From an uncultured Candidatus Binatia bacterium (GTDB lineage Bacteria > Desulfobacterota > Binatia > DP-6): a stretch of DNA of 64,000 nucleotides. A model generated the notes under the pieces. The model made no database searches and had not been told where the DNA came from. It worked only from the letters and a program-made list of their open reading frames with translations. The translations under genes were made by a program, and so were the position numbers. The stretch is from positions 86,897 to 150,896 of the forward strand of contig CAYOIZ010000007.1 of the NCBI GenBank assembly GCA_964404165.1, read 5' to 3'. Shown one piece after another: positions 599-63,378 of the stretch (within the stretch, counting starts at the first letter, position 1; each line of letters starts with the position of its first letter).

Positions 599-913
599 CT
601 AGCGGACGATCGCGCGCAGCAGCGCGATGAGTTCGCTGTCGGTATCTGCAGCGAGTGCCAGGAGCGCGTTGCCACGGGTGGTCTCGATCTTCCCGCGGAG
701 CATTCCCTGCTGCATGAGCCCCATGAATGACTGGATACGGCGATCGGCGCGACGCAGGTTCAGGTACGCCCGATTGCCGGTGCCGATCAGGCCGAGCTGC
801 GCCTTCTTGCGCGCGGCGGTCACGCGCTTCATGAGCGCCGTGTGGCGCTTCTTGCCGCCGAGATCGACGGGCGAAGTGGAGCGCACCAGATCGAGGAGGC
901 TGGTCAGGCGGCA
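599..913 (-). other. Conserved C-terminal basic alpha-helical tail domain (104 aa) of B
   Basis: CRLTSLLDLVRSTSPVDLGGKKRHTALMKRVTAARKKAQLGL... shares the C-[RQ]-[VL] junction and a K/R-rich helix with the tails of E, F and G. Confidence 0.5.
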
Positions 914-3900: not shown

Positions 3901-4630
3901 ACGTCGACTCGAAGGCGATGCGCTTGCCGTCCTGGTTGGTGACCGGACGCGTACTGGCGCCGAGCGCCGCACCACCGGCGGCGACCGACAGGCGGCGGAT
4001 GATGCCGCCGGCGCGCTCGTACACGTAGACCTGCGACGCCCCCGACGGGTTCTGCAGGCCGCCGAGCAGGGTCGCCGTCGATTCGAAGACGATGACGCCG
4101 GCGAGAACGTTGACCGACGGACGGACGCTGTCGCCGTCGGTGCTCGAGGTGATGCGGCGGACCTCGTTGGTCCGCAGGTTCTTCACGAAGATCTGCCGGC
4201 GCGTCGCCCCGGCGCCGACGAGCGGCGACAGCGAGCCACCACCGGTGAACGATCCGAGCGCGTCGAACGCGATCCACTGATCGCTGTTGCCGCTGGCGAT
4301 GTCACCGATGCTCGGGTTGGCCGGCGCACCGGGACCCGAGGTGACCTGACGGATGTACGGAGTCGATGCGGGCGGGCACGGCGTGGTGTTCTCGGTAGTG
4401 CCCTGGGCGCAGTCGTAGTACGCGAGGTTGAATACGAAGATCTGGGGCGTCGTGTTGCCCGTCGCGGCAAGGTCCTGAGACGATGCGAAGGTGAAGAAGT
4501 TGCCCCAGGCCCGACCCGAGGGGTGGGCATGGGACACCCCGCTGCTGATTTGTACGGCACCGGGTGTTTCCCGATGCAGCGCCCAGGCAGGCCCTGCAAG
4601 CAGGAGCACCGCAAGGATCCACACGTTCAT
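599..4630 (-). CDS. Giant secreted protein B: signal peptide, PD40/TolB-like beta-propeller repeats, about 14 tandem 6-Cys repeats, conserved basic C-terminal tail
   Basis: The ORF is 599..4939; I re-set the start to the ATG at 4630 (MNVWILAVLLLAGPAWA, a signal peptide). The N-terminal half has repeated Q[IV][YF]V.[ND]L / GG..YVYER blades (PD40-like). Residues from about 735 onward are CDDGNACT.D.C.P..GC repeats. The last 104 aa form a Lys/Arg-rich helical tail. Confidence 0.85.
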   Translation of the reverse strand: MNVWILAVLLLAGPAWALHRETPGAVQISSGVSHAHPSGRAWGNFFTFASSQDLAATGNTTPQIFVFNLAYYDCAQGTTENTTPCPPASTPYIRQVTSGPGAPANPSIGDIASGNSDQWIAFDALGSFTGGGSLSPLVGAGATRRQIFVKNLRTNEVRRITSSTDGDSVRPSVNVLAGVIVFESTATLLGGLQNPSGASQVYVYERAGGIIRRLSVAAGGAALGASTRPVTNQDGKRIAFESTSDLLGNGHNTGVSQIYYVDYDKVNHTGTLYRLTNGNGPSRNAFVAENSPVVTFDSTATNLPGSTGTAGRRVVLANVTTPATASATLTELTPPSIYGDCSFPTLNPGAKVTAQGVFEVRVPMICTGDPLDNDTTGNRVFVYDSSDGLLYQITGAGDVQGPLSANLGQWFLTLSTSSDLTGDGVCGYQIYAINYNFLDNPHSAWVPAQGPGQVPPDAIEPSGSSVIGLRNFDIANTVSNTSITTRDETISTPVSSGGSVGLDIGAPNGFNGEATITVPSDRVVLPPVPVAGFGAICFAVTGNGQGTLDCDGGAAGGDVTISQDHNTDVSDPSCTLGCRENDLACQGSLPGPHLGDSDAVCNGPINTSFAGSYAAGGARVSVPLTFSFSVNAGPDGVFCNGNDTYSTVQNMPALLWLTTGTATGRILDRDNVLGLDLEIPDTGVAFDCNRLRAGDLAGSHLVGTVPILDVPNVPGLRDIVVGFDFEAAPSAPNACGASCNTAADCDDGNACNGAEVCGANKLCQSGTPLTCDDGNVCNGSETCDPDLGCQAGTACNDGNPCNGEETCSQQTGCQVGTPIQCTDGDACNGVETCNPANGQCVAGEDLACNDGNVCTTDMCNPQTGCTFMNNTESCDDGSACTTGDTCGGGSCQGTLTPAAVQCNQGDGNACNGTETCNPSTGACDATPLDCNDSNVCTNDSCNPSIGCQHVNNTNSCSDGDLCTTGDVCANGACVATPTVCGDGNACNGTETCNPGTGACTGGTPPSCDDDDPCTDDSCAPAVGCVAAYNQAPCDDENACTTGDTCSNGTCNPGGLVQCDDGNNCTGVETCDPEDGCRAGTPLACDDGNACTDNTCTPGSGCSSEPVVCDDNNPCTDDVCDPVTGCNFTTKSCDDGNPCTVDSCTPEGCLHEMLVAGEACDDGNACTTGDVCTAGVCGGTGTVACGDTNVCNGAEACNPQTGVCEAGTPLTCDDGDACTIDAACNATDGCSYERVPNFVVCRLTSLLDLVRSTSPVDLGGKKRHTALMKRVTAARKKAQLGLIGTGNRAYLNLRRADRRIQSFMGLMQQGMLRGKIETTRGNALLALAADTDSELIALLRAIVR
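914..2430 (-). repeat. Tandem array of about 14 class-A 6-Cys repeats (about 36 aa each; Myxococcus cysteine-rich-repeat-like) inside B
   Basis: Periodic ...C.DGN.C(N/T).(T/D).C.(P/A)..GC..G(T/A)P..C(D/N)DGN.C... in the translation. The nucleotide sequence is correspondingly repetitive (tgcaacga / gacggcaa motifs). Confidence 0.7.
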
Positions 4631-5129
4631 CCCAAGAATCACCGCCGCTTTCGAGCTCGCACGCATATGGGGGGCCATCGAGCAGAAAACGTGCCACGAA
4701 TCGACGCATCGTGCCATGGGATAAGGCGTTAAATTCCCGGAAAGATTCCTTCTGCCGTGGGGTTTTCCACAGGTCATGCTCTCCGACGAAGCGTTCAACC
4801 GACCCCTCACTTCCGCGCGATGCATGCACGATCGCAACGAACTGCCGGCGTCGCTACGCAGGTGCGCGAGCACCCGCCATGGCTTCTGCCACACCTGACG
4901 TCCACCGAGCATCGAACGGGTACAGTGGGGCTCAACCATCTTCGGAGAATACTACACGCTCCGACCGCCGGAATCCCCGATTTATCTAGGCTCCGCTCGA
5001 TGCCCGGGCCTCCGTCTCGGCGATGCACGCTGTCGCCCCTCGGCAGCGAGCGCCGCCGCGCAATGCATCGCTGCAGGGTCTGGGAGGTTTGCAGGCGGCG
5101 CGGCGCCTGCGCTAGAGCCCGGCCCCACC

Positions 5130-6350: not shown

Positions 6351-9227
6351 TCAGTGCGGCGCGAGACAACGCAACTTGAGGTTGTCCGTGTCCGGCGTCC
6401 CGGCGGCGTCGCGCGTGCGCAGCTGCAGCTTCGTCCACGACTTGCCGGTCGGCACGCTCAGCACCATGCGGCCGCTGCACACCTCGCCCGGCCCGGTGGC
6501 GACGAACGCGCCCACGCCCTGCAGCAGTGCCGCGCGGATCGCCGCGAGCGTGCCGGTGTCGCGTGCGCTCGGACGCCGGACCTCGAGCGACGCCACCTGC
6601 ACCGCGCCGCACCCGAGACGCGCATCGTCCGCGGCGACGCACGCCCACATGCCGAAGCCGCAGCGTCCCGGCGCCGGATCGCGGTCGCATCCCGGGTCCC
6701 CGTCGGTGCAGCTCTGCTTCGTCGACGGCAGGCCCTTGCCGTCGAGCGCCGGCGACGCCAGGTACAGGGCGGTCTCGAGCTGGCAGTCGGTGAGACGCGA
6801 GCCGCCGCCCGGGATGCGCACGGCGGGCACGACCTCGGTGCAGCCGGCAGTGCACGAGCTCTCCGGCGTACCGTTGGCAGCGCCGTCGTCGCACTGCTCG
6901 CCGCAGGTGACGACGCCGTCGCCACACGTCTCGGGACGGCAGGCCGCGTTGCAGCCGTCGCAGGCGGTGGTGTTGCCGTCGTCGCAGCCCTCGCCGATCT
7001 CCGTCGTGCCGTTGCCGCAGACCGCGGTGTTGGGGTCGCAGACGAGATCGACGCGGTTGCGCCGCATGCGGCCGCCGTCGATCTCCCGCGCCGCGATGAG
7101 CAGCGGCGTCGTCCCGGCGAGCCCGGGCGGATGCGGCACGCGCACCCCGACGGGAGCCGTGCACGAATCGCGCTGGGCGACGGGAGCCCCCGCGACCAGG
7201 ACGTTGGTGCCGGCGCGCACCGTCACGCCGGTGGCCGCGAGCGCCGCCACGAGCGCGGAGGCGTTGGCGACGTCGTGCGGTGCGGTCACGAGCAACGGGT
7301 TCGGCGCGTTCAACGACACCGATTCGATCGCCGCCGGCTGGCACGACGGCACGCGAACGTCGGTGGCGCCGAGACAGACGCCGACGTCGAACAGACACTG
7401 GCCGTCGCTCGCACCGTCCTGATCGCACGCCGGATCCCCGTCGATGCATCGCTGCGTGTGCGACGGCATGCCGTCGATCACCTCGCCACCGGGGTTCTGC
7501 ACCGTCCACTCGGCGTAGCACGCGTTGCGGCCGGTGCCGCCTGCGAGGCGCTGCACGCCACCGACGGCGGGGACGACGACGCAGTCCGCGTCGCAGGAGC
7601 TGCCCGGGGCCCCGTTCGCCGCGCCGACGTCACACTCCTCGTCGCACTCGACGCGCGCGTTGCCGCAGGTTTCCTGCCGGCAACTCGCGGCACAGCCGTC
7701 GCAGGCGACGTTGTTGCCGTCGTCGCACTCCTCGCCCGGCTCGGTCGTGCCATTGCCGCAGGCAGCACCGTCGGGCGCACACGGCGGCAACAGGGGATCG
7801 AGCACCGGCACCGCCACGGGGGCGAGCACGCCGCTCAGGATCGGCGGCTGCAGCGCGTCGCGGAAGCGGATGGCGTTCACGCCCCCGACCGACGTCGTCA
7901 TCCGTCCCGCCACCGTGATGCGACCGCCGCCGAGGATCTCGTTGAGGCCGTTGGGCCCGAGCGTGCGCAGCTCGCCCGTGGCCCCGACGGTGATGCGGCA
8001 GCCGCTCACGCTGATCGTGCCGGCGAGACCCGTCGAGGCGCCGTTGGCGCGGATCACGGCACTGGCGACGACGTCCCGCCCCTGCAGCGTCACGAAGCCG
8101 CCGGTGCCGAACTGCGTGGCGCCGTCGGCCGTGATCAGGCCGGCCGCCGTCAGCGTGCCGAGCCCCTGCGCCCAGAGTGTGCCGCCCCCGCACGAGCCGC
8201 CGCCGAGATCGATGCGATCGAGACGGACGTCCCGCCCGGCCTGGACGTCGACCGACCCCCCGCAGCCGTCGATGCCGTTGCCGGTGGCGATGATCGCGGC
8301 CGTCTGCGTGATGTTCGTGCCCGCCTCGAGCGTCACCGATCCGCCCTCGCCGTCGGGGAGCGCGCCCGTGATCGTCATCACGGCGCCGAGGGTGATGGCC
8401 TGCTGCGCGCGGATGTCGATGTCGGCCCCGCTGCCGCCGCCCTCGTCGGGATCGCCGACGCCCGGGCCGTTGATGACGCCGAGCACCGAGACGGATCCGC
8501 CGGCGTCGAGCAGGACGTACCCGCCGTAGCCCGAGATGCCGCCACCGGGCACGTCGAGCTTCTGCCGCGTGACGACGTCGACGGCGGCGTCGAGCTCGAT
8601 CGAGCCGCCGCCGAAGTCGCCGCCGGCCGCGGTGAGCACCTGCGCCGCGTCGATGCTGCCGCCGGCGTGCATCGCAATGACGCCCCCATCGGCTTGCGAG
8701 CCGCCCTTCGCCTCGATGAAGCCGGTGACGGCGATGCTGCCGCCCGCCGTGACGTCCACGAGCCCGCCGCTGCCCTCCTGTCCCGATCCGTTGGTGACGA
8801 TGTCCCCGTCGATGCCGACGTCGCCCGCGGCGACGAGCATGACGGTGCCGGCGGCGAGCGCCGCCGAGACGTCCACGCGCGCCCGCGCACTGCCGGCGAC
8901 CTCGACGGTGATCGCACCGGCGGAGCGGAGGGTCAGGCTCGGTCCGAAGTCGCCACCGGTGCCGAGGACGCGCGCGCCGGGCAGCAGACGCACCGGACCT
9001 GCGTCGATCGTCACGGCCCCCGACAGGACCAGCCGGCCCTGGGCGCCCAGGTGCAGCGCCCGGGTCCCGAGATCGATGGCCGACCCCGGCGTGAGCGTCA
9101 CAACGGTGTTGACGACGCACGGATCGGCGAGCGACGTGCAGAGCTCGTCGGCGACCGTCGCCCGTGCGAGCGGCACGCACCCGAGGAGACATGCGGCGAC
9201 CGACAACCACGACCTGACGACATGCAT
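6351..9227 (-). CDS. Giant secreted protein C: signal peptide, Gly-rich parallel beta-helix, two duplicated class-B Cys-repeat modules; no basic tail
   Basis: MHVVRSWLSVAACLLGCVPLARA signal peptide. The N-terminal 50 aa are about 50% identical to the N-terminus of F. GG.GG.I.I.A...I repeats are typical of a right-handed beta-helix. From residue about 490 there are two copies of CGNGTTE.GE.CDDGN..ACDGC.A.CR.ETCG..., each followed by a TQ(R/S)C.DGDP.CD.D Cys-rich unit. Confidence 0.8.
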   Translation of the reverse strand: MHVVRSWLSVAACLLGCVPLARATVADELCTSLADPCVVNTVVTLTPGSAIDLGTRALHLGAQGRLVLSGAVTIDAGPVRLLPGARVLGTGGDFGPSLTLRSAGAITVEVAGSARARVDVSAALAAGTVMLVAAGDVGIDGDIVTNGSGQEGSGGLVDVTAGGSIAVTGFIEAKGGSQADGGVIAMHAGGSIDAAQVLTAAGGDFGGGSIELDAAVDVVTRQKLDVPGGGISGYGGYVLLDAGGSVSVLGVINGPGVGDPDEGGGSGADIDIRAQQAITLGAVMTITGALPDGEGGSVTLEAGTNITQTAAIIATGNGIDGCGGSVDVQAGRDVRLDRIDLGGGSCGGGTLWAQGLGTLTAAGLITADGATQFGTGGFVTLQGRDVVASAVIRANGASTGLAGTISVSGCRITVGATGELRTLGPNGLNEILGGGRITVAGRMTTSVGGVNAIRFRDALQPPILSGVLAPVAVPVLDPLLPPCAPDGAACGNGTTEPGEECDDGNNVACDGCAASCRQETCGNARVECDEECDVGAANGAPGSSCDADCVVVPAVGGVQRLAGGTGRNACYAEWTVQNPGGEVIDGMPSHTQRCIDGDPACDQDGASDGQCLFDVGVCLGATDVRVPSCQPAAIESVSLNAPNPLLVTAPHDVANASALVAALAATGVTVRAGTNVLVAGAPVAQRDSCTAPVGVRVPHPPGLAGTTPLLIAAREIDGGRMRRNRVDLVCDPNTAVCGNGTTEIGEGCDDGNTTACDGCNAACRPETCGDGVVTCGEQCDDGAANGTPESSCTAGCTEVVPAVRIPGGGSRLTDCQLETALYLASPALDGKGLPSTKQSCTDGDPGCDRDPAPGRCGFGMWACVAADDARLGCGAVQVASLEVRRPSARDTGTLAAIRAALLQGVGAFVATGPGEVCSGRMVLSVPTGKSWTKLQLRTRDAAGTPDTDNLKLRCLAPH
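6460..7760 (-). repeat. Duplicated class-B Cys-rich modules (CGNGxxExGExCDDGN...DGCxxxC) of protein C
   Basis: Two modules of about 200 aa that align with each other in the translation; consistent with the Myxococcus cysteine-rich repeat (TIGR02232-like). The family assignment is from memory, not a search. Confidence 0.55.
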
Positions 9228-11882: not shown

Positions 11883-12118
11883 GGTGCGTCCTTTCCTGCG
11901 GGTTCGGTGCGGAGCGACAGCGCGTGGATGCGGGGCATGAGCCCTCCGAGCGCTCCGTAGATCAGTCGGTGCTGCTCGACGAGCCCGAGGCCGTCGAACT
12001 GGGCCGCGCGTACGCGAACCTCGAAATGGTCACCGGCACCGGTGGTATCCGCCACGTCGACGCGCGCGCCCGGAAGCGCGACCTCGATGCAGCGTTGGAC
12101 CTCGGCGGGATCGACCAT
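11879..12118 (-). CDS. bolA: BolA family protein
   Basis: BolA fold signature (...GAGDHFEVRVRAAQFDGLGLVEQHRLIYGALG...). The stop overlaps the grxD start (TCAT at 11879..11882). Confidence 0.85.
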   Translation of the reverse strand: MVDPAEVQRCIEVALPGARVDVADTTGAGDHFEVRVRAAQFDGLGLVEQHRLIYGALGGLMPRIHALSLRTEPAGKDAP

Positions 12119-12174
12119 TCCCTCTGGCTACACTCCCGATCCCGGTGGAGCAAGCCGCGAAGCGCGTGCGCCGC

Positions 12175-12546
12175 TCAGGACTTGGGCTGACAGTCGAGCA
12201 CGGGATTGCCGACGCTGTTCCACGTGCAGGTCTTGGTGGACGCGGGATGGTCGGTGGTCAGGCGGTACGAGACGCCGTCGCTCTCGCACTCGGTGAAGAC
12301 CACGCCCTCGGAGGGCGTGAAGCCAGGCAGCGCGCTGCAGTCGTCGGAGTACTCCAGGTGGTCCAGGAAGAACGCCTCCTGCCCCGCTGCAGCGTTGCGC
12401 ACGTCGGTCACGATGCGCGCGTCGTATCCCTTCCCCTGTCGTGCCGCGAAGTTCGGGATGGCGATGGCGGCAAGGATGCCGATCACCGACATGACGACCA
12501 TCAGCTCGACCAGGGTGAATCCCCGATTGCGTGCCCGCGTGTCCAT
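12175..12546 (-). CDS. Type IV pilin / pseudopilin with an N-terminal methylation motif
   Basis: RGFTLVELMVVMSVIGILAAIAIPNF, with Gly at -1 and Glu at +5. Four Cys in the C-terminal region suggest disulfide loops. Confidence 0.85.
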   Translation of the reverse strand: MDTRARNRGFTLVELMVVMSVIGILAAIAIPNFAARQGKGYDARIVTDVRNAAAGQEAFFLDHLEYSDDCSALPGFTPSEGVVFTECESDGVSYRLTTDHPASTKTCTWNSVGNPVLDCQPKS

Positions 12547-12718
12547 GCGCCCTCGAAGTGCAAGCCAGGTGCCACCGCTGGGCCCCGTCGGCGCAGGGTG
12601 GCGGTGCCACGCGGCGATGCGTTGGCGCCACCGGCGCCACGCGCGTGACGCCGAAACCGCATGACGCTGTGCGTTTCGCGATGGCCAGATTTCCGCGCAT
12701 TGGGTAAGAACGGAAGGG

Positions 12719-13423
12719 ATGCCCGACGCCGCTCACCGCGCCGGCACCCGTCTCCCGCGCGTGCCATCCCTCCTCTTCGCCTGCGTCCTCCTGTTGAACG
12801 CGCTGCCCGCACCGGCGTCCGCCGCCCGTTGCGGCGACGACGTCGACGGTCGCGGCACCCGCGTGGGCTGCGCCTGCGGGGATGTCGTCGTGAGCTCCGT
12901 GCGGCTCGATGCCGCCGACCCCATCGTGCAGGCGCCCTGTCCGGCGGCGGGCCTCGTCGTCGACGTGCCGTCGTCGGTTGCGCTGCCGACGCTCGACCTC
13001 GGCGGCCTCACGCTCGCCGGCAGCGGACGCGGCATCGGCATCGACGTCCTCTCGGGCGGACGGGCCGGGCTCGCGCTCGTCGGTCCCGGCACCGTGCGTG
13101 GATTCGACCATGGCGTCGCAGCCCGCGAAGGCACACTGGCGCAGGCGTCGTCGGTGCGCGCCGACGGCAACGCCCGCGACGGCTTCCGACTGGCCGGACG
13201 CGGGTACCATCTCGTCGCCTGCAGCGCCGAGCACAATGGACGCGACGGCTTCGTGCTGCAGGGCCAGGACTACCGGCTCGACGACTGCACCGCGGTCGCC
13301 AACGGGCGCGACGGCTTCGCCGTCCGCGGCCGCCCTGCGGCCCCGGTCGACGCCGCCAACGCCGCCACCGACAACGGTCGCCGCGGCGCCCGCACGCGCA
13401 GCCGCGCCGCGAGGTCGCGATGA
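12719..13423 (+). CDS. Small secreted parallel beta-helix repeat protein D, translationally coupled to giant protein E
   Basis: Signal peptide LLFACVLLLNALPAPASAA. Repeated ...NARDGFRLAG / HNGRDGFVLQG / ANGRDGFAVRG (PbH1-like). Arg-rich C-terminus. Stop TGA at 13421..13423 overlaps the ATG of E at 13420. The overlapping N-terminal extension of ORF 12661.. is in another frame and is Arg-rich junk. Confidence 0.65.
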   Translation: MPDAAHRAGTRLPRVPSLLFACVLLLNALPAPASAARCGDDVDGRGTRVGCACGDVVVSSVRLDAADPIVQAPCPAAGLVVDVPSSVALPTLDLGGLTLAGSGRGIGIDVLSGGRAGLALVGPGTVRGFDHGVAAREGTLAQASSVRADGNARDGFRLAGRGYHLVACSAEHNGRDGFVLQGQDYRLDDCTAVANGRDGFAVRGRPAAPVDAANAATDNGRRGARTRSRAARSR

Positions 13424-16400
13424 TCCGCGCACTCGCGGGCGCCCTCGTCGCCATCGGGCTGCTCCTCGGCACCGCGGGCGGGTCCAGCGCCGCCAACTGC
13501 ACCAAAGGACCCGTGTGCGGTGCGAAGCCGTTCACCGACGACGCCTCCTGCTGCTTCGGCCTCTACTGCCAGCTCGACGGCGACGTGCAGCTGTCGGGTC
13601 CCGATTGCGTGCTCGATTTCGGCAACCGTGACGTCACGATCTCCGGCAAGGTCCAGCTCGGCACCAAGCGTCTCAAGATCCGCGCCAAGAGCCTCGTCAT
13701 CGCGAATGGGGTGGATGGTCGCGGTGCCGCGGGATCACGCGGCGGCACGCTCGAGATCGAGACCTTCGTCGGCACGGCGCTCGACTTCCGCCTGCTCACG
13801 AACGCCGCCAAGATCGACCTCTCCGGCGGCATCGGAGGCGGCGTGTTCGCCATCGCGGCACAGGGTGGCATCTCGCTCGAACAGGGCGAGATCCGCGCCG
13901 ACGGTCTCACCGCAGCGGCGCCCGGTGGCAGCATCGATCTGCGGAGCGAGACCGGCAACATCCACGTCGGGACGGTCCTGGCGGCGGACGACGGCACCCT
14001 CACCGGCGGTGGCTCGTCCCGCATCGGCCTGCAGGCAGTCGCCGGCGGGATCACGCTGAACGGCGCGAACCTCAGCGCCTCCGCCGGCAGCATCGACATC
14101 GCAGCGCGCGACACCGTGTCGAGCGACCAGGGGGCGAAGCTCCGCACCGACCGCGGCGGCGCGATCGACATCGTCGGCAGCGCCCTGACGCTGGCGGGCG
14201 AAGCCACCGCGACCTGGGGCAGCATCAACCTGCACGCCACGACCGGCGCCCTCGCCGTCACGCGGACGAGCCAGCCCGGCCTCCGCGTCGACGCGAGCAG
14301 CGACGGCGACACCGGCGAGATCGCGCTCATGGCCGATGCGCCCGGTCCGGCCGGCACCATCACCATCGCGACGCCCATCGTCGCGCCCGGCGCCGACGTC
14401 GAGGCCCACGCCACCGGGCTCCTCCGCGTCACGAAGAAGCTCAACGCCAGCGGCACGCCCGCCGACGGGGAGACCACGGGCGGTGGCCAGGTCGTGCTCG
14501 AGAGCGAGCTCCTCGACATCGAGATCACCGACGACGTCCTCGCCAACGACAACCTGACCGAGGGCAGCGTCGATCTGAGCGCCGGACACGACGTCATCCT
14601 GAACGGCGGCGTCGAGGCCAAGGGCACCATGGGCGGGCCGGGCGGCGCCGTCACCATCAGCGCCGGCCGCGACATGCGCCTCGGCGCGGGACGCACCATC
14701 GACGCGTCCGGTGGCGAATCGGGCGGCAGCGTCGAGGTGCGCGCGGGCGGACGCATCGAGCTGGTCGGAACGAGCAAGATCGACGCCGGCACCGGCGCCC
14801 CCGGCCCGGGCGGCCTCATCGATCTCGCCGCCGGCGCCGACGGTGAGGCGGGCGCGCTCGCCATCGCCGGCAGCGTCGTCGCCAAGACCAAGGACGCTGG
14901 CAACGCGCCGAGCACGATCCTGCTCGAGGGCTGCGACATCACGATCGCGGCGGCGGGCACCGTCGACAGCAATCGCCTCGGCAGCAACGGCGCCCACGGC
15001 AGCAACAGCCTCACCGCCCGCAAGAGCGTCACCGTCGCCGGCAAGATCCTCGGTGGCGGCGGCAACTTCCTCACGTCGGTATCGGCGGCGTCTGGCGGCG
15101 GCCAGGTCGCGCCCGCGTTCACGCTCTCGCTCCGCCCCGCCTGCACCGACAATGGCGTGCCGGCGGGATGCCTGCTCCCCTGCCCCACCTGCGGCGACGG
15201 CGTGGAACAGTTCCCCGAAACCTGCGACGGCGGCGCCGCCGATCGCTGCACGAGCAAGTGCGGCCCAACCTGCCGAGACGACCTGGTCTGCGATGCGGCG
15301 CTCGCCTGCGCGGGCATCGCCTGCGACACGGTCGGCGGCTGCTACTTCGGCCCTGTCCCCCAGGGGACGACGTGCAACGACGGCAACGCCTGCACCGCGA
15401 ACGACGTCTGCAGCAGCGGCGCGTGCCACGGCCCGGACGTGGTCGTCTGCGACGACGGCAATGCGTGCAACGGCGTCGAGACGTGCCCGAGCGCCGCCGG
15501 CTGCCAGGCCGGCACGCCGCCCAACTGCGACGACGGCAATCCCTGCACCACCGACAGCTGCGCGCCCGCGGCGGGCTGCCAGCACACGCCCAACGCGGCT
15601 CCCTGTGACGACGGCGATGCCTGCACCGAGAACGACGCCTGCGGCGACAGCGCCTGCCAGGCCGGGAGCGCACGCACGTGTCCGGCCGGGGAGATCTGCG
15701 TCGCACCGACCGGGTGCGAGACGGCGCCGGCGTGCAACGAGGCCGCGGATTGCGACGACGACAACGCCTGCAACGGTGTCGAGACGTGTGTGAACGACGC
15801 CTGCGTGGCGGGAACGCCCCTCACCTGCAACGACGGCAACGTCTGCAACGGTACCGAGACGTGCGATCCCGCGACCGGCTGCAAGGCGGGAATCGCCTGC
15901 GACGACGGCAACCCCTGCAACGGCACCGAGACCTGCTCGCAGGAGACCGGCTGCCACGCCGGAACGCCTCCCAGCTGCGCCGACACCGACGTCTGCACCA
16001 CCGACAGCTGCAACCCGCTCTCGGGATGCGTCAACACCCCCGTCGGAGGCGACTGCTGCAACCTCGCGTCCGACTGTGCCGATGACGGCGACGTCTGCAC
16101 CGACGCCACCTGCGTCGCCCATGCGTGCGTCTTCGAGACCAGCGCGCTCTGCTGTCAGAACCCGGCCGATTGCGCGGACGGCAACCCCTGCACCACGGAC
16201 GACGTCTGCAACGTCGCCAATCGCTGCGAGCACGCGCTCCTCGAGGGCACGCAGCCGGGGTGCGGTGACGCCTGCGCGCCGGGAAGCTGCGCCGACGGCA
16301 TCTGTGTCGCGGGCGAGCCCACGGTCTGCGACGACGGCGAGGTGTGCACCGCGGACACCTGCGCGCCGAGCACGGGATGCGTCTTCACCGGCGTCGTGGG

Positions 16401-17136
16401 CTGCTGCGAGACGAACGCCGGATGCGACGACGGCGCGCCCTGCACCGTCGACACGTGCGACACCGACACCCACACCTGCAGCCACGTCGTCGACGAGCTG
16501 TGCAGCGAGTGCGTCACCGACAGCGACTGCGATCCGCTCGGCACCTGTGGCGGCATGGCATGCCAGAGCGGCGTCTGCGTCTCGACGCCGCCCCTCGACT
16601 GCGACGACGCCAACCAGTGCACCGTCGACACCTGTCCCGACGCGCGCGGCTGCGTGCACACCATCCGCTCCTGCGACGACGGACGCGCCTGCAACGGCGC
16701 CGAGTCCTGCAGCCCACTCGACGGCTGCCGCGCGGGCACGGTCCCCGACTGCGACGACGGCGACCGCTGCACCGACGACACGTGCAGCGAGCCGACCGGG
16801 TGCACCCACGTCCAGCGCACGGGCTTCCCGGGCGTCGTCTGTCAGCTCGACACCGTGTCGGCGTTCCTCGATGGTGCGAGCACCGACGAGCTCACGGCGA
16901 AGCTCAAGCGCAAGCTCGGCAAGCTCCTCACCAAGGTGCGGGCCACCCTGCGCAAGGCCGAGTCCACCGGCAGCGCCCGCAAGCGGGCCAAGCTCGCCGG
17001 CAAGGCAGCCAACCAGCTACGTGGCCTCTCACGCGCCATCGACAAGGGGCGCGATCGCGGCATCGCCGGCGATCTGGCCGACGTCCTGCGCCGGGCCGTC
17101 GACGGCGCAGCCACGACCGCGGGCACCCTGCGCTGA
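13420..17136 (+). CDS. Giant secreted protein E: signal peptide, long Gly-rich beta-helical (hemagglutinin/autotransporter-passenger-like) region, about 15 class-A Cys repeats, basic C-terminal tail
   Basis: Start ATG at 13420 (MIRALAGALVAIGLLLGTAGGSSA). About 580 aa of G..I.L....I.A repeats. Cys repeats run from about 15181. The last 98 aa are KLKRKLGKLLTKVRATLRKAE... Confidence 0.85.
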   Translation: MIRALAGALVAIGLLLGTAGGSSAANCTKGPVCGAKPFTDDASCCFGLYCQLDGDVQLSGPDCVLDFGNRDVTISGKVQLGTKRLKIRAKSLVIANGVDGRGAAGSRGGTLEIETFVGTALDFRLLTNAAKIDLSGGIGGGVFAIAAQGGISLEQGEIRADGLTAAAPGGSIDLRSETGNIHVGTVLAADDGTLTGGGSSRIGLQAVAGGITLNGANLSASAGSIDIAARDTVSSDQGAKLRTDRGGAIDIVGSALTLAGEATATWGSINLHATTGALAVTRTSQPGLRVDASSDGDTGEIALMADAPGPAGTITIATPIVAPGADVEAHATGLLRVTKKLNASGTPADGETTGGGQVVLESELLDIEITDDVLANDNLTEGSVDLSAGHDVILNGGVEAKGTMGGPGGAVTISAGRDMRLGAGRTIDASGGESGGSVEVRAGGRIELVGTSKIDAGTGAPGPGGLIDLAAGADGEAGALAIAGSVVAKTKDAGNAPSTILLEGCDITIAAAGTVDSNRLGSNGAHGSNSLTARKSVTVAGKILGGGGNFLTSVSAASGGGQVAPAFTLSLRPACTDNGVPAGCLLPCPTCGDGVEQFPETCDGGAADRCTSKCGPTCRDDLVCDAALACAGIACDTVGGCYFGPVPQGTTCNDGNACTANDVCSSGACHGPDVVVCDDGNACNGVETCPSAAGCQAGTPPNCDDGNPCTTDSCAPAAGCQHTPNAAPCDDGDACTENDACGDSACQAGSARTCPAGEICVAPTGCETAPACNEAADCDDDNACNGVETCVNDACVAGTPLTCNDGNVCNGTETCDPATGCKAGIACDDGNPCNGTETCSQETGCHAGTPPSCADTDVCTTDSCNPLSGCVNTPVGGDCCNLASDCADDGDVCTDATCVAHACVFETSALCCQNPADCADGNPCTTDDVCNVANRCEHALLEGTQPGCGDACAPGSCADGICVAGEPTVCDDGEVCTADTCAPSTGCVFTGVVGCCETNAGCDDGAPCTVDTCDTDTHTCSHVVDELCSECVTDSDCDPLGTCGGMACQSGVCVSTPPLDCDDANQCTVDTCPDARGCVHTIRSCDDGRACNGAESCSPLDGCRAGTVPDCDDGDRCTDDTCSEPTGCTHVQRTGFPGVVCQLDTVSAFLDGASTDELTAKLKRKLGKLLTKVRATLRKAESTGSARKRAKLAGKAANQLRGLSRAIDKGRDRGIAGDLADVLRRAVDGAATTAGTLR
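15181..16839 (+). repeat. Tandem class-A 6-Cys repeat array of E
   Basis: CDDGNACNGVETC..AAGCQAGTPPNCDDGNPCTTDSCAPAAGCQHTP... recurs about 15 times. Confidence 0.7.
16840..17136 (+). other. Conserved C-terminal basic alpha-helical tail domain (98 aa) of E
   Basis: CQLDTVSAFLDGASTDELTAKLKRKLGKLLTKVRATLRKAESTGSARKRAKLAGKAANQLRGL... Confidence 0.5.
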
Positions 17137-17302
17137 AGTACTGCCTGGGCGATTCGGTCGCGCGATCGCGCCCGAGCCGTGCAGCCGTGCAATCCATGTG
17201 ACGCGCCATGGCACGACCCGGAGCCCTTACGCTGCAAGGCTGCAGGGCTCGAGCCGCGAGCGGCCTGACCGGGCACGAGGGTTGCTCAAGCCAACCCGCA
17301 CG

Positions 17303-19948
17303 ATGAGACTCCCCGTCCGCCTGGTCCTCGGATTCCTGGCCTGTCTCCCCGCCGTGGCCCATGCCACGACGGCCGACGACCTGTGTCTGCCCGCTGCCGA
17401 TCCCTGCATCGTCTCGAACAGGCAGATCACCGTCACCGACGGCTCGATCATCGACCTGGGCGCGCGGACCCTGATCCTGCGCTCCGGCTCGGCCCTGACG
17501 GTGGCGCCGGGTCCGCTGGCGGGCGGGACCATGACCCTCAAGGCGGGCAACGTCACCCTCGAGGGCGGCACGGCGCTCAAGGGGAGCGGCGCCGACATCA
17601 ACGTCGACGTCACCGGGACCATCCAGGTCCTCAAGACGAACAGCCTGGCCCGGATCGACGTCGCCGGCACCTCGCCCGGCAACATCGAGCTCGACGCCGA
17701 TGGCGACATCCTCATCCAGGGCATCCTCGACGCCGGTTCGGGCGCGGTGTCGTCCGACGGCGGCGTCGTCCTCGTCCACGGCATGAACCTGTCGGTGCCG
17801 GGAACCGTCGACGTCCACGGCGGCAAGGACGCGACGGGCGGCGTCATCGAGCTCGACGCCCTCGGCTCCATCAACGTCTCCGGCAACGTCGACGCCACGG
17901 GCGGCGACGGCGGCGACGTCGAGATCGACGCGTTCGGCGAGCTCGTCACTACCGGCAAGCTCGATCTGAAGGCGACGCTCGGTGGCGGCTTCGGCGGCAC
18001 CCTCGTCCTCGGCACCTCGAACGGCCGCCTCGCGCTGGGCGGCACCATCGACATGCAGGGCGAGGCCGGCGGCGACGGCGGCGGCGACGGCGGCGACCTC
18101 GACGTGTTCGCGGGCGAGTCGCTCGAGATCACCGCCACGATCGACCTGCGCGGCGCCTCTCCCGACGGCAGCGGCGGTGGAGCGGCGTTCTCCGCCGATG
18201 TGGACATCATCCAGACGGCGCCCATCCTCGCCCAGGGCCAGGGTCAGGAGAGCGCCGGCGGCAGCGTGGAGTTCAGCGCCGAGCGCAAGGTCGTGCTCGG
18301 CTCCGTCAACGCGTTCGGCGGCGGACAGGGATTCGGCGGCACGGTCGTCGCCACCGCATGGTGCGATCTCCAGCTGCCTGCCGGCAAGGCGATCAACGCC
18401 ACCGCGCTCGGTGGGGACACCACGCTCCGATCCGGCGGCGCCATGACCATCGACGGCACGGTGACGGCCGGCACCGCCAACCGCATCTACCACCGCACCG
18501 GCGAGACGCCGGTGTTGAACCTCGCCGGCATCCTGCCCGCACCCAGCGTCACCCCCGACGACAACCTGATCCCCTGTGGCGGCCTCCCCACGCCGGGCTG
18601 CGGCAACAACATCGTCGAGGCCGGCCTCGGCGAGCAGTGCGACGACAACAACACCGACTCCTGCGACGGCTGCTCGTCGATGTGCAAGAATGAGGTCTGC
18701 GGCAACGGGGTCACCGAGTGTCTCGAGGTGTGCGACGACGGCAACACCGCGAGCGGCGACGGCTGCCAGAACGACTGCCTGCGGGTCGAGAACATCTGCG
18801 GCGACGGCATCACGGATGCCGCCGAGACCTGCGACGACAGCAACACCGACGCCTGCGACGGCTGCTCGGCAACCTGCCAGACCGAGGCGTGCAACAACGG
18901 CGTCGTCGAGTGCGCCGAGGAGTGCGACGACGGCCAGCCCGGCGTCGGCTTCTGCGACGACTCGTGCCAGATCGTTCCGCCGCCGAACTGCGGCGACGGC
19001 GTGGTCGATCAGGCCGAGGGCGAGCAGTGCGACGACGACAACACGACCGACTGCGACGGCTGCTCGAGCCTCTGCCAGACCGAGGGCTGCGGCAACGGCC
19101 GCGTCGAGTGCCTCGAGTCGTGCGACGACTTCAACACCGCGTCGTGCGACGGCTGCTCGCCGACCTGCGGTGTCGAGGAGTGCGGCAACGGCGTCCTCGA
19201 CTGCTTCGAGACCTGCGACGACGCCGGCCCGGGCAGCCTCTGTCTGCCGGGTGTCTGCGAGCAGGGCGAGTTCTGCACGTCCGAGACGGCCGCCGAGCAG
19301 CCGTGCATCGCCTGCGCCAGCGACCTCGACTGCGACCCGATGGGCGCCTGCGGCCCGAGCACGTGCGTCGACAACCCCGACAAGGGCCGCAAGGAGTGCA
19401 CGCCCACCGACGCCCCGTCGTGCGACGACGGCAACGCCTGCACGGTGGACGCGTGCGACGCCGCCACCGGCTGCGTCACCACGCCGCGCATCTGCGACGA
19501 CGGCCAGGCCTGCAACGGCTCGGAGACGTGTGACCCCACCGCCGGCTGCGTCAGCATGGCGCTGACGTGCGACGACGGCGACGTCTGCAGCGACGACAGC
19601 TGTGACGATGCCACCGGCTGCAGCTACACGCTGCGCTCCGGCCTGGCGCTGGTGAGCTGCCGCGTCGAGGAGATCAACGCCATCGTCACCGCCGCCGGCA
19701 CCGATCTCGCCACTCCCGCGCGCAAGAAGCTCACCAAAGCGATCAAGAGCATTCGCGCGAAGGTCGCGGCCGCCGGGTCCACGAAGACGAAGAAGGCGAG
19801 CCGTGCCGTGAAGGCCGCCAGCAAGCAGCTCCCGAAGCTCGGGACCCTCGTCACCAAGCTCGGCGCGCAGATCCCGGCACCGATCGCCTCCGACCTCACG
19901 CAGGCCATCGGCAGCGCCACCCAGGCCATCGCGCTGGTTCCGCGCTGA
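17303..19948 (+). CDS. Giant secreted protein F: signal peptide, beta-helix with N-terminus homologous to C, class-B then class-A Cys repeats, basic C-terminal tail
   Basis: Start ATG at 17303 (MRLPVRLVLGFLACLPAVAHA). The upstream part of ORF 16076.. is out-of-frame read-through of the 3' end of E. ATTADDLCLPAADPCIVSNRQITVTDGSIIDLGARTLILRSG matches the N-terminus of C. Class-B CGNNIVEAGLGEQCDDNNTDSCDGCSSMC... repeats come first, then CDDGNACTVDACDAATGC repeats, then the tail CRVEEINAIV...KKLTKAIKSIRAKVAAAG... Confidence 0.85.
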   Translation: MRLPVRLVLGFLACLPAVAHATTADDLCLPAADPCIVSNRQITVTDGSIIDLGARTLILRSGSALTVAPGPLAGGTMTLKAGNVTLEGGTALKGSGADINVDVTGTIQVLKTNSLARIDVAGTSPGNIELDADGDILIQGILDAGSGAVSSDGGVVLVHGMNLSVPGTVDVHGGKDATGGVIELDALGSINVSGNVDATGGDGGDVEIDAFGELVTTGKLDLKATLGGGFGGTLVLGTSNGRLALGGTIDMQGEAGGDGGGDGGDLDVFAGESLEITATIDLRGASPDGSGGGAAFSADVDIIQTAPILAQGQGQESAGGSVEFSAERKVVLGSVNAFGGGQGFGGTVVATAWCDLQLPAGKAINATALGGDTTLRSGGAMTIDGTVTAGTANRIYHRTGETPVLNLAGILPAPSVTPDDNLIPCGGLPTPGCGNNIVEAGLGEQCDDNNTDSCDGCSSMCKNEVCGNGVTECLEVCDDGNTASGDGCQNDCLRVENICGDGITDAAETCDDSNTDACDGCSATCQTEACNNGVVECAEECDDGQPGVGFCDDSCQIVPPPNCGDGVVDQAEGEQCDDDNTTDCDGCSSLCQTEGCGNGRVECLESCDDFNTASCDGCSPTCGVEECGNGVLDCFETCDDAGPGSLCLPGVCEQGEFCTSETAAEQPCIACASDLDCDPMGACGPSTCVDNPDKGRKECTPTDAPSCDDGNACTVDACDAATGCVTTPRICDDGQACNGSETCDPTAGCVSMALTCDDGDVCSDDSCDDATGCSYTLRSGLALVSCRVEEINAIVTAAGTDLATPARKKLTKAIKSIRAKVAAAGSTKTKKASRAVKAASKQLPKLGTLVTKLGAQIPAPIASDLTQAIGSATQAIALVPR
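18585..19657 (+). repeat. Mixed class-B and class-A Cys-repeat region of F
   Basis: See F. This is the only protein in the window that carries both repeat classes. Confidence 0.65.
19658..19948 (+). other. Conserved C-terminal basic alpha-helical tail domain (96 aa) of F
   Basis: CRVEEINAIVTAAGTDLATPARKKLTKAIKSIRAKVAAAGSTKTKKASRAVKAASKQL... The histone-H1-like KAAK pattern is evident. Confidence 0.5.
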
Positions 19949-36700: not shown

Positions 36701-37434
36701 CCACCGAAACCAGCCAGCGTCCCGCGCTCGCCGACGCGCTGGCGCTCGCGATCGAGGTGCGCATCCGCGACAACGCCTGGATCCGTCGCGACGACGCCAA
36801 CATCGAGCTGGCCGCCGATCTACGGCTCGACAAGGCCTCGGGCGGACCGCTCCTCATCACCGGCAACGTGCGACTGGTGCGCGGGTGGTACGCCTTCCAG
36901 AGCCGCCGATTCGAGCTCGACGAGGGCTACATCACGTTCGACGGCACGAACCCGCCCGATCCCTACTTCGCCATCACCGCGACCCATCGCACCGGGCAGT
37001 ATCGCATCCTCGTCGAGATCGGCGGCACGGCCGAGAAGCCGACGCTGACCCTGTCGTCCGAGCCCGCGCTCGATCAGGCCGACATCCTCGCCGTCCTGCT
37101 CTTCGGCCGCCCGAGCAGCGACCTCGGCAGGGGCGAGAGCCTCGATCTCCAGCAGCAGGCGGTCTCGCTCGCGGCCGGTTACGTCATGCCCGAGCTGCGC
37201 TCGTCCGTGATGAACGCGCTCAGCCTCGACTCCCTCGAGGTCGGCGGCGAGGGCGTGCGGGCCGGTCGTTACGTCACGCAGGACGTCTTCGTCTCGCTGT
37301 CGCAGGAATTCGGCCCGCAGAAGGGCCAGGCGGTGGCCGTCGAGTACGGCGTCACGCCGAGCATCTCGCTCAAGCTGTCGACGTCGACGCGCGGTGACAG
37401 CGCCGTCGACCTGCTGTGGCACCACCGCTACTGA
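33733..37434 (+). CDS. tamB: TamB (translocation and assembly module subunit, DUF490 C-terminus)
   Basis: ATG at 33733 overlaps the tamA stop. N-terminal TM anchor, a long beta-rich body, and a C-terminal DUF490-like segment (...GWYAFQSRRFELDEGYITFDG...). Confidence 0.8.
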   Translation: MRRLARWVLRTVLVLVVLAALLVGGTLLYVRTTAGEAMLRTELVRLLTDVTGARVSLGPLRGSFVRTVDVTDIVLRFDGGTELRVGRLRATLSPLSLLHGLVLVDDVALERVRVRAVHTADGWGLPDLPDEDDTHDGRPLPRIVLRAVHVMDGRVAMALHDVAPRRQVAATALAVDAAVTIGPDGIEVRLDALTAVPRGLDLSPLTARGTLRLPTDGGITLADVVVATARSRLAASGTIVPHERIDLTLADLSVAAREARALLPFDLASDVRVTGRAGGAWDACAVTADVGLDPGGRIGVQGTIDLAASPPRWSSEVSLVAVDPAAVLATLPSGRVNGIVEGTGTGVDAAARIRLGPSTLAAQAIERAFLEASIDGGVARAGGRVAHAAGVASLRARARLDTPVRYRARTRADVTDLAALVPSTPGTAAVRATVAGVEPAGTGRTVRLQATLDRATVRGVALAGGTVTARLDGPRLHVDRAQLRGPGTEVTAWAAADLDTKQADATLDVQATLDVVGRQASLPMGGTATARATAAGRLDALAVDGRIVVERGRWETTDVRRLEVVGRADGIGGTEPSARGTLTAGAIHVPGRDPWDAAAELGWRRSAASDDGTLRASGRATNGAGARLALTAKHTAPTTLVQLTELVLAPAEQPAWQLARPARVTVADGIAVDELALTAGAQRITLSGHAGASGAADATLRASGIGVAALCGLMAKGPRCGGTLTADARLTGTAAAPQLTATAAIDQLRIDDAVYGPLTARAQYAARALAVQGRLSYAQAGDLDVEGTVPIDLAWSGERHDLSSAPVSLALRTQGLDLAFLRAVAPTVVRRSDGRLTANLRLRGAWNDLRAEGGADLTMQRLELTATGVPYEDVRLRLRAAESSIVVEELSARGGDGTLTGSGRIALTGLRPGEADVRVRLSRFLAVRLPAYEAATDGDLTIGGPLTAPAIRGRIDLTRAVVRPSVLPSSNPSRQPDPTIEVVGLPPAPPTETSQRPALADALALAIEVRIRDNAWIRRDDANIELAADLRLDKASGGPLLITGNVRLVRGWYAFQSRRFELDEGYITFDGTNPPDPYFAITATHRTGQYRILVEIGGTAEKPTLTLSSEPALDQADILAVLLFGRPSSDLGRGESLDLQQQAVSLAAGYVMPELRSSVMNALSLDSLEVGGEGVRAGRYVTQDVFVSLSQEFGPQKGQAVAVEYGVTPSISLKLSTSTRGDSAVDLLWHHRY

Positions 37435-43542: not shown

Positions 43543-43543
43543 G

Positions 43544-63155: not shown

Positions 63156-63378
63156 GCGTCGGTCGATGGTAGCATACGACCGCGCCGGTGTCGGGTTACA
63201 AAATCGCCGCAGACGCCGTGTCGCCTGCCGCCCCACCCGGCACATCTGCTGCGTATCCGGGACACGCCCCGTCCCCGGGAGCACCGAACGACCGCGGGGG
63301 TGCGACACACTGTCACATGGAACAGGTGGCGTTTCGCTGGACCGCCGCCGTCGGACCGCCCTATACTCGCCGGCGCAC

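What the first reader, a model, noticed from the sequence alone, without database searches (positions are those of the whole stretch)
12719..13423. Small secreted beta-helix protein D translationally coupled (ATGA overlap) to giant protein E
D is 234 aa, with a signal peptide, PbH1-like NGRDGF repeats and an Arg-rich tail. Its stop TGA (13421..13423) overlaps the ATG (13420..13422) of E, which implies co-translation and fixed stoichiometry. It could be a cap, chaperone, processing partner or co-secreted subunit. The ORF finder merged the E start into a longer out-of-frame Arg-rich N-terminal extension (12661..); the frame of D is the one with protein-like content.
Basis: seen in the sequence. 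Interest (0 to 1): 0.55.

Follow-up and report, generated by a model that had tools for sequence, protein, structure and literature searches.

The report
Small beta-helix gene coupled to adhesin-like gene
A real 234-residue exported beta-helix protein gene overlaps by four bases the start of a 1,238-residue adhesin-like surface protein gene, and this pair is conserved as a unit in uncultured Binatia soil bacteria, though what it does is still unknown.

Summary
D (12719..13423) is a genuine gene. Its GC3 is 0.885, against 0.61 for the 12661 frame. Its dN/dS is 0.19-0.43, against 3.9-1.6 in the other frame. It has more than 120 homologs, and AlphaFold gives a beta-helix at pLDDT 92. E starts at ATG 13420, inside ATGA, with GAGG 5 nt upstream. 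E is 1,238 aa, large but not giant.

D belongs to a family almost confined to uncultured Binatia. An E-family gene lies immediately downstream in 13 of 14 genome loci and 62 of 65 informative metagenome loci. Its start overlaps D's stop by 4 or 10 nt in 57 of the 61 junctions scored. Paralogous and tandem cassettes keep the pairing. D and E distances co-vary (r = 0.90). No D-E fusions were found.

D here is a C-terminally truncated variant of a roughly 300-aa form. It resembles alginate epimerase and depolymerase beta-helices but lacks their catalytic motif. E has an adhesin-like beta-helix head, a disulfide-rich stalk and a helical tail.

The most likely reading is that D is a co-expressed, non-catalytic accessory partner of E. 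Physical interaction and fixed stoichiometry are untested. One syntenic locus lacks D, and E-head paralogs exist without D. Interest is modest.

The parts
12719..13423 (+). Gene D: 234-aa exported short right-handed parallel beta-helix protein. It is a truncated member of a Binatia family of roughly 300-aa proteins.
   Evidence: ORF. GC3 0.885. dN/dS 0.19-0.43. 124 homologs at E<=1e-3. AlphaFold pLDDT 92.3.
12719..12823 (+). Predicted Sec signal peptide of D (aa 1-35, cleavage ASA|AR).
   Evidence: n/h/c layout read from the sequence. An A-x-A precedes the invariant Cys38 across the family alignment. No signal-peptide predictor was available.
12827..12961 (+). N-terminal Cys/Asp-rich cap of D (aa 37-81: RCGDDVDG...CxCGD...DP...C). 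This is the most conserved part of the family.
   Evidence: C38, G39, D40, C51, C53, G54, D55, D67 and C74 are at least 90% conserved in 120 sequences. pLDDT is 97-98 here.
12989..13396 (+). Beta-helix rungs of D (aa ~91-226), period about 22 aa, with an N-G-R-D-G-F ladder.
   Evidence: Motifs at residues 151, 173, 195 and 219. Strand pattern in the model. Weak PF13229 match at E 0.013. Profile match to AlgE epimerase A-modules at E 9e-9.
13373..13420 (+). Arg-rich C-terminal tail of D (NGRRGARTRSRAARSR). It is a degenerate last rung plus a probable remnant of the family's C-terminal CRVGxxCR cap. It also encodes E's ribosome-binding site.
   Evidence: It aligns to 'NGRDG..VRGR.H' and to the terminal CR of long homologs. 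pLDDT falls to 51-76.
13411..13414 (+). GAGG Shine-Dalgarno-like element for E, 5 nt before the ATG and inside D's coding sequence.
   Evidence: Sequence. A GGAG/GAGG/AGGA core occurs at -17..-4 in 22 of 60 distinct junctions, against 9% background (p = 6e-9).
13420..13423 (+). ATGA stop/start overlap between D and E.
   Evidence: A 4- or 10-nt overlap is conserved in 13 genome loci and in 57 of 61 metagenome loci.
13420..17136 (+). Gene E: 1,238-aa exported protein. Layout: signal peptide (aa 1-24), long beta-helix head (aa ~25-590), disulfide-rich repeat stalk (aa ~591-1130, 89 Cys), C-terminal helical module (aa ~1134-1238).
   Evidence: Translation. Dicty_CTDC x5. Head model pLDDT 90.2, best fold matches EtpA/HMW1/Ag43-type helices. 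Cys counts. Orthologs align from Met1.
12175..12546 (-). Context: divergent 123-aa prepilin-type gene (MDTRARNRG|FTLVELM).
   Evidence: TIGR02532 at E 8.5e-10 and partial PilA/GspG matches. It is conserved upstream of 'type 1' cassettes only.
12559..12574 (-). Context: perfect sigma-54 -24/-12 consensus (TGGCAC-N5-TTGCA) in front of the pilin gene.
   Evidence: It is the only exact match in the window. The same exact motif lies at the equivalent place in 43 related loci.
17303..19948 (+). Context: 881-aa E-head paralog, 166 nt downstream of E, on the same strand and with no D of its own.
   Evidence: E-head profile E 1.5e-32. Start and N-terminus. DUF4215 and Dicty_CTDC. It shares E's C-terminal module.

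Best explanation
D and E form a conserved two-gene cassette of uncultured Binatia.

Shown:
- D is a translated gene under purifying selection. It encodes a Sec-type leader, a four-Cys/Asp-rich cap and about 6-7 PbH1-type beta-helix rungs.
- E encodes a leader, a long adhesin-like beta-helix head, a disulfide-rich stalk and a helical tail.
- D's TGA overlaps E's start by 4 nt (10 nt in some relatives) in nearly every locus.
- The cassette duplicates and diverges as a unit.

Inferred:
- The two genes are co-transcribed.
- Ribosomes finishing D re-initiate at E's ATG, helped here by GAGG 5 nt upstream, so E synthesis depends on D translation.
- Both proteins are exported by Sec and fold with disulfides in the envelope of a diderm cell.
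- D acts as a non-catalytic accessory partner of E. It could be a bound subunit or an assembly factor for E's beta-helix head, possibly with glycan-binding capacity. It is unlikely to be a stand-alone enzyme.
- The window's D is a derived variant that lost 3-4 rungs and the C-terminal Cys cap. The Arg-rich tail is what remains, and its sequence is constrained by also encoding E's initiation signals.
For: Gene reality:
- GC3, dN/dS, 124 homologs and a model at pLDDT 92.

Linkage:
- Identical pilin|D|E synteny with a 4-nt overlap at 87%, 62% and about 50% identity.
- 13 of 14 complete genome loci have an overlapping E-family gene.
- 62 of 65 informative metagenome loci do too, plus one where E is cut by an IS element.
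- 57 of 61 overlaps are 4 or 10 nt.
- Searching from the E side also recovers D.

Unit behavior:
- The same MAGs carry two cassettes, and L006 carries two in tandem.
- D distance against E-head distance gives r = 0.90, Mantel 0 of 2000, and the D tail type matches the E N-terminus type.
- D and the E head have equal dN/dS: 0.19 and 0.22, then 0.43 and 0.42.
- There are no D-E fusions among 95 E-family and 120 D-family proteins.

Coupling signal:
- SD-like cores are enriched before the E start.

Non-catalytic reading:
- The AlgE catalytic YG(F/I)DPH(D/E) stretch aligns to RDGFRLAG in D.
- Fold matches are generic, with E >= 7e-3.

Charge:
- Mature D has pI 7-10.6, against E net charge of -50 to -98 in most pairs.
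Against: - There is no direct evidence of interaction, expression or localisation.
- L023 keeps the synteny but lacks D, although its E has two frame changes that could be decay or assembly error.
- E-head proteins without any D exist in this window (6351..9227 minus strand and 17303..19948) and in L024, so the E head does not generally need D.
- One D-like gene (L017) has no E.
- 4-nt overlaps are common in this genome.
- Only 37% of junctions have a clear SD core.
- Tight linkage alone would produce the distance correlation.
- Conserved R175, D176 and D154 on the rungs could mark an unrecognised active or binding site.
Confidence: 0.5

Rival explanations
1. D is a glycan-active enzyme (lyase, epimerase or hydrolase) or a free lectin. 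It remodels or binds an exopolysaccharide that E also uses. The two are co-expressed but do not form a complex.
For: - The D-family profile matches mannuronan C5-epimerase A-modules (E 9e-9) and a K1 capsule depolymerase (E 6e-6).
- The best fold matches are a capsule lyase or depolymerase and AlgG/AlgE.
- The NGRDGF Asp aligns with the Asp of AlgE's NGKDGF rung.
- R175 and D176 are at least 90% conserved.
Against: - The epimerase catalytic motif is absent.
- Fold E-values are weak, with TM about 0.4.
- The window's form has only about 7 rungs after losing 3-4.
- D itself scores below the Pfam threshold.
- Strict pairing with one E family across paralogs is not expected for a free enzyme.
Confidence: 0.25
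2. The overlap is only operon compaction in a high-GC genome. D and E are neighbors by descent and have no specific functional dependence.
For: - At least four other gene pairs in the window overlap by 4 nt.
- The whole block (DUF218, glutaredoxin, BolA, pilin, D, E) is syntenic among relatives.
- D-less E-head paralogs exist.
Against: - The pairing survives in paralogous cassettes that have entirely different neighbors (L006, L014, L016, L018), in tandem duplicates, and in a Gemmatimonadota-labelled MAG.
- About 75 of 79 informative loci keep it.
Confidence: 0.12
3. D is not translated. The long 12661..17136 frame is the real product, an E with an Arg-rich N-terminal extension.
For: The 12661 frame is open.
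Against: - Its GC3 is 0.61.
- Its dN/dS is 3.9 and 1.6.
- The extension is closed by stops in relatives.
- E orthologs align from Met1 with a signal peptide.
- The D frame has 124 homologs.
Confidence: 0.01

Closest known systems
Alginate (mannuronan) C5-epimerase beta-helix modules (AlgE A-module, AlgG) and related CASH/PbH1 polysaccharide lyases and depolymerases
   Same: Both are right-handed parallel beta-helices with rungs of about 22 aa carrying an N-G-x-D-G-F/I motif. These are the best sequence-profile matches among solved structures (E 9e-9), and they recur in the fold search.
   Different: D lacks the YG(F/I)DPH(D/E) catalytic stretch. It has only about 7 rungs and about 200 mature residues. 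It carries a Sec leader and a Cys/Asp-rich N-cap, and it has no R-modules or trimerisation domains. Fold E-values are only 7e-3 or worse.
NosD (PF05048), a small periplasmic beta-helix accessory protein encoded beside its client system
   Same: NosD is a small exported PbH1 beta-helix that serves as an accessory factor rather than an enzyme. Long D homologs carry weak or faint PF05048 hits.
   Different: D itself has no PF05048 hit at E<=1. No nosZ or nosFY genes are nearby. The partner here is an adhesin-like protein.
Two-partner secretion systems (TpsA/TpsB: EtpA, HMW1, FHA)
   Same: Both are two-gene operons with a large beta-helical exoprotein. The top confident fold match of the E head is the EtpA secretion domain (probability 0.99, E 0.03), and there is a weak Fil_haemagg hit.
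   Different: D is a soluble beta-helix, not an Omp85/POTRA transporter. E has no NPNL or NPNG motif. E is disulfide-rich, which is atypical for TpsA proteins.
Classical translationally coupled overlapping gene pairs (for example the trpB-trpA and trpE-trpD junctions of E. coli; from general knowledge)
   Same: The stop and start codons overlap, and a ribosome-binding site lies inside the upstream gene.
   Different: Those pairs are known subunits of one enzyme. Here partnership is only inferred, and no expression data exist.

Membership tests
PbH1 / right-handed parallel beta-helix repeat proteins (Pfam PF13229, TIGR03804) | Sequence match above the curated threshold | tested here: inconclusive
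   D scores 15.6 bits against a 25.9-bit cut-off and has no NCBIfam hit. Most of its roughly 300-aa homologs carry precomputed PF13229 hits. P0035 passes TIGR03804 with 22.8 bits against 19.45.
PbH1 / right-handed parallel beta-helix repeat proteins (Pfam PF13229, TIGR03804) | Three-stranded right-handed helix with rungs of about 22 residues and an Asn/Gly ladder | tested here: met
   The AlphaFold model (pLDDT 92.3) has regular strand triplets. N-G-R-D-G-F motifs lie at residues 151, 173, 195 and 219. All fold matches are parallel beta-helices.
Mannuronan C5-epimerases (AlgE/AlgG type) | Catalytic YG(F/I)DPH(D/E) motif (Tyr, Asp and His essential in AlgE4; from general knowledge) | tested here: not met
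   In the profile alignment the AlgE stretch 'ryGfDPHeq' aligns to 'sdGlrvaGr', which is RDGFRLAGR in D.
Two-partner secretion (TpsA/TpsB) | An adjacent Omp85/POTRA transporter gene | tested here: not met
   E's neighbors are D (a beta-helix), a pilin and an E paralog. The only Omp85 gene in the window is TamA at 31904..33733, next to TamB.
Two-partner secretion (TpsA/TpsB) | A TPS domain with NPNL/NPNGI motifs in the exoprotein | tested here: not met
   E contains no NPN tripeptide. Only a sub-threshold Fil_haemagg hit was found.
NosD accessory proteins (PF05048) | A PF05048 match and a nos gene-cluster context | tested here: not met
   D has no PF05048 hit, and no nos genes occur in the window or in related loci.
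   The cap is present at residues 37-55, and the columns are at least 90% conserved in 120 sequences.
   ATGA at 13420..13423. E-head profile E 2.8e-169. The same arrangement is seen in 13 of 14 genome loci and 62 of 65 metagenome loci.
   The window's D has 198 mature residues and ends RTRSRAARSR. The same truncation occurs in P0002-P0009, and other short Arg-tailed forms occur in L020, L043 and L050.

The most novel reading that the evidence does not exclude
D and E are the two subunits of a previously undescribed kind of two-component surface or matrix adhesin. A small beta-helix protein is made in step with a large beta-helix/Cys-repeat protein and is required for its folding, export or ligand binding. 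The system works without an Omp85 TpsB partner. In 'type 1' loci it is genetically tied to a sigma-54-driven type IV pilin.
Probability: 0.25. Interest if true: 0.55.

Novelty: new variant of a known kind. Interest (0 to 1): 0.3.

Why it matters
Binatia are abundant, uncultured soil and sediment bacteria whose cell-surface biology is unknown. Their genomes carry many large secreted Cys-rich repeat proteins; this window alone has five. The D-E cassette is the one place where such a protein has an invariant small partner, so it gives a defined and testable entry point: co-expression, complex prediction and glycan binding.

The finding also has annotation value. Automatic ORF callers can swallow D into a false Arg-rich extension of E in this 71%-GC DNA, and the evidence here fixes both gene starts.

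Beyond that the finding is ordinary. It is an overlapping gene pair encoding two beta-helix proteins of unknown function.

Tried and rejected
- **Word-indexed search with E residues 1-640.** It returned only 6 weak hits and not even the query itself, because Gly/Ala-rich words swamped it. I replaced it with the exhaustive representative search.
- **Fusion evidence from L005.** The 536-aa Beta_helix plus Dicty_CTDC protein of L005 is not related to D.
- **Fusion evidence from the window.** The PF13229 domain of the 1,151-aa protein at 59985..63440 is not related to D either (hhalign probability 0.7%).
- **Fusions in the family sets.** No D-E fusion occurs in either family set.
- **A sigma-54 promoter for D.** A GG-N10-GC candidate at 12687..12701 is not conserved in L004 or L020. 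The sigma-70 scan found nothing in 12100..17600.
- **Programmed -1 frameshifting that would fuse D to E.** There is no slippery heptamer at the junction (read).
- **Lipoprotein anchoring of D through 'LFAC'.** It is not a canonical lipobox and is not conserved in orthologs.
- **Curated families.** NCBIfam, PHROGs and Pfam gave no specific family for D or for the E head.
- **Literature.** Four searches found nothing on this family.
- **Neighbor calling.** My crude GC3-based gene caller picked some wrong-strand ORFs in L014 and L016, so neighbor analysis of type-2 cassettes was not pursued.

Full report
**1. The observation**

The window is 71% G+C, so long open frames occur on every strand. The ORF 12719..13423 (+) encodes 234 aa. 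Its TGA (13421..13423) overlaps the ATG (13420..13422) that opens a signal-peptide-bearing protein running to 17136. The mechanical ORF finder instead starts that frame at 12661 and produces an Arg-rich extension.

Three independent measures show that D's frame is the coding one.
- GC by codon position is 0.80/0.61/0.885 for D, against 0.86/0.78/0.61 for the 12661 frame. The position of highest G+C switches from D's third position to E's third position at about 13400.
- Against the 87%-identical ortholog, 56 of 85 nucleotide differences fall on D's third position and dN/dS is 0.19. Against the 62% ortholog it is 0.43. The same alignments read in the 12661 frame give 3.9 and 1.6.
- The D frame has 124 database homologs at E <= 1e-3, including an identical protein and an 87% homolog labelled Candidatus Binatia. 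In relatives the E frame is closed by a stop only 18-48 nt upstream of E's start (L012, L013).

E orthologs align from Met1 with a leader peptide. The next in-frame start, GTG 13513, would delete that leader. E is 1,238 aa, which is large but not giant.

**2. What D is**

D has a Sec-like leader: Arg7, Arg11 and Arg14, a hydrophobic core at residues 17-30, then ASA|AR. No predictor was available, so this was judged by eye. A-x-A precedes the invariant Cys38 family-wide.

Next comes a cap, RCGDDVDG...CxCGD...DP...C, with four Cys and several Asp that are at least 90% conserved across 120 sequences. About six rungs of 22 aa follow, carrying NARDGF, NGRDGF, NGRDGF and NGRRGA.

AlphaFold with a 120-sequence alignment gives a beta-helix at mean pLDDT 92.3. 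Only the leader and the last 14 residues or so are uncertain.

Similarity to known proteins is generic.
- Pfam sees only a sub-threshold PF13229 match.
- The family profile matches alginate C5-epimerase A-modules (E 9e-9) and a capsule depolymerase.
- Foldseek returns capsule lyases or depolymerases and AlgG/AlgE at E >= 7e-3 and TM about 0.4.
- The epimerase catalytic stretch (YGFDPHE) aligns to RDGFRLAG, so three of the four catalytic positions are absent.

**3. D here is a truncated variant**

Most family members have about 270-300 mature residues. They continue for 3-4 more rungs and end in C-R-[V/I]-G-x-x-x-C-R. The window's D and its close relatives (P0002-P0009, 234-238 aa) stop after the rung that aligns to 'NGRDG..VRGR.H'.

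The terminal codons here are ...cgc agc cgc gcc gcg agg tcg cga TGA. In L013 they are ...cgc tgc cgc gtc gga gcg gcg tgt cga TGA. By eye the first looks like the second with both Cys changed to Ser and one codion deleted. I therefore read the Arg-rich tail as the degenerate remnant of the C-terminal cap after an internal deletion. This is inference and carries low weight.

The same nucleotides carry E's GAGG (13411..13414) and its ATG, so the tail is under dual constraint. Other short forms with Arg-rich tails occur independently in L020, L043 and L050.

**4. What E is**

The first 600 residues of E fold, at pLDDT 90.2, into a long beta-helix. Its best fold matches are the EtpA and HMW1 secretion domains, Ag43 and pertactin, all with weak E-values. 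So it is a generic adhesin-type helix.

No Pfam or NCBIfam model covers this head. An exhaustive search of 1.84 billion representatives finds only 97 relatives at E <= 1e-3.

Residues 591-1130 hold 89 of the 100 Cys, in Dicty_CTDC/DUF4215-type repeats. The last 100 residues or so form a Lys/Arg/Ala-rich helical module. That module recurs at the C-termini of at least two other Cys-rich proteins in the window, and by eye in a third.

**5. The pair is a conserved unit**

- Orthologous loci at 87%, 62% and about 50% D identity show the same order: DUF218, glutaredoxin, BolA, pilin (minus strand), D, E. The stop/start overlap is 4 or 10 nt.
- Thirteen of 14 complete loci from species-representative genomes have an E-head gene overlapping D's TGA. 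The exception, L017, is followed by a thiolase-like gene.
- Of 65 metagenome loci with a complete D and at least 400 nt downstream, 62 have an E-head gene.
- In one further locus (L078) the E start is present but is cut by an IS256-like transposase.
- 57 of the 61 junctions scored overlap by 4 or 10 nt, and the stop is almost always TGA.
- Starting from an E homolog (39% identity) also recovers an overlapping D.
- The cassette exists in at least two paralogous types in the same MAGs. Type 1 ends in CRVGxxCR and has the pilin upstream. Type 2 ends in QCRIGMMGECR and has no pilin.
- L006 carries two cassettes in tandem, and a Gemmatimonadota-labelled MAG carries one.
- D and E-head pairwise distances correlate at r = 0.90 (Mantel 0 of 2000), and D tail type tracks E N-terminus type.
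- D and the E head have the same dN/dS.
- No fused D-E protein was found.
- SD-like cores lie 4-17 nt before the E start in 37% of distinct junctions, against 9% background (p = 6e-9).

**6. Limits on the partnership claim**

- 4-nt overlaps are frequent in this genome, so the overlap alone is ordinary.
- L023 keeps the pilin|E synteny with only 196 nt between them and no trace of D. Its E shows two frame changes, which could be decay or long-read assembly error.
- E-head proteins with no D exist in this window (6351..9227 minus strand and 17303..19948 plus strand) and in L024.
- Linkage by itself explains the co-divergence.
- Nothing here measures expression, localisation, binding or stoichiometry.

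**7. Mechanism**

I consider D a real gene with probability about 0.97. Co-transcription with translational coupling I put at about 0.85. It rests on the conserved overlap and on SD enrichment, not on any measurement.

The functional reading I favor, at about 0.5, is that D is a non-catalytic, exported accessory partner of E, either a bound subunit or an assembly factor for the E head, possibly lectin-like. Four points support it:
- the strict and ancient pairing;
- the separate-polypeptide rule;
- the loss of the catalytic motif;
- the basic-versus-acidic charge contrast.

The main rival, at about 0.25, is a glycan-active enzyme or free lectin acting on the same matrix. Mere neighborhood gets about 0.12. 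The 12661-frame reading is refuted.

**8. Comparison with known systems**

The pair resembles a two-partner arrangement, but it is not TPS. There is no Omp85 partner and no NPNL motif. D is not an alginate epimerase, because the catalytic motif is absent. It is not NosD, because it has no PF05048 hit and no nos context.

D is best filed as a truncated member of an uncharacterised Binatia PbH1 beta-helix family. The D-E cassette as a unit appears undescribed in the searchable literature.

The novelty class is a new variant of a known kind. Interest is modest at 0.3.

Noticed in passing
window 12559..12574 (-), and 43 related loci: A perfect sigma-54 -24/-12 consensus (TGGCAC-N5-TTGCA) lies just upstream of the divergent 123-aa prepilin gene (12175..12546, minus strand). 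The exact motif is kept at the equivalent place in 43 fetched loci. This suggests a sigma-54-dependent pilin, as for pilA in other bacteria.
   Followed up: partly
window 17303..19948 (+), motif at 17271..17286: An 881-aa E-head paralog sits 166 nt downstream of E with no D of its own. A one-mismatch sigma-54-like motif (GGGCAC-N5-TTGCT) lies 17 nt before its ATG. Its N-terminus (CLPAADPCIV) resembles the D-linked E-like proteins of L006 and L018.
   Followed up: partly
window 16819..17133 (E), the C-terminal ~100 codons of 17303..19948 (+) and of 59985..63440 (-), and by eye the C-terminus of 599..4939 (-): A Lys/Arg/Ala-rich helical C-terminal module of about 100 aa, preceded by a 'GFPGVVCQLD'-like segment, is shared by several large Cys-rich secreted proteins (phmmer 1.6e-12 and 4e-07). 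Its role is unknown; it could be an anchor or a sorting signal.
   Followed up: partly
window 6351..9227 (-): A 958-aa DUF4215 protein carries the same E-type beta-helix head (profile E 3.4e-44) but has no D-like neighbor.
   Followed up: partly
window 59985..63440 (-): A 1,151-aa protein combines a PF13229 beta-helix, Dicty_CTDC repeats and the shared C-terminal module in one chain. Its helix is not related to D.
   Followed up: yes
window 31904..37434 (+): A TamA-like gene (Omp85 plus POTRA) is followed by TamB. An AcrB/HlyD-type RND pump lies at 40417..44596 (minus strand). Both are consistent with a diderm envelope.
   Followed up: no
L023 3804..7835: This locus is syntenic (pilin next to E) but D is completely absent. 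E homology there runs through three reading frames, so the gene is either decaying or affected by assembly errors.
   Followed up: partly
L078 2672..4164: The E gene downstream of an intact long D is cut after about 70 codons by a 417-aa IS256-like transposase gene on the opposite strand.
   Followed up: no
L006 8001..11335 and 12634..16253: Two D-E cassettes lie in tandem on one contig, each with a stop/start overlap.
   Followed up: partly
window 12670..12690 (+): The block TGCGTTTCGCGATGGCC, about 30-50 nt upstream of D's ATG, is conserved in L001, L004 and L020 within an otherwise divergent intergenic region. It could be a promoter or an operator. It is not a conserved sigma-54 site.
   Followed up: partly
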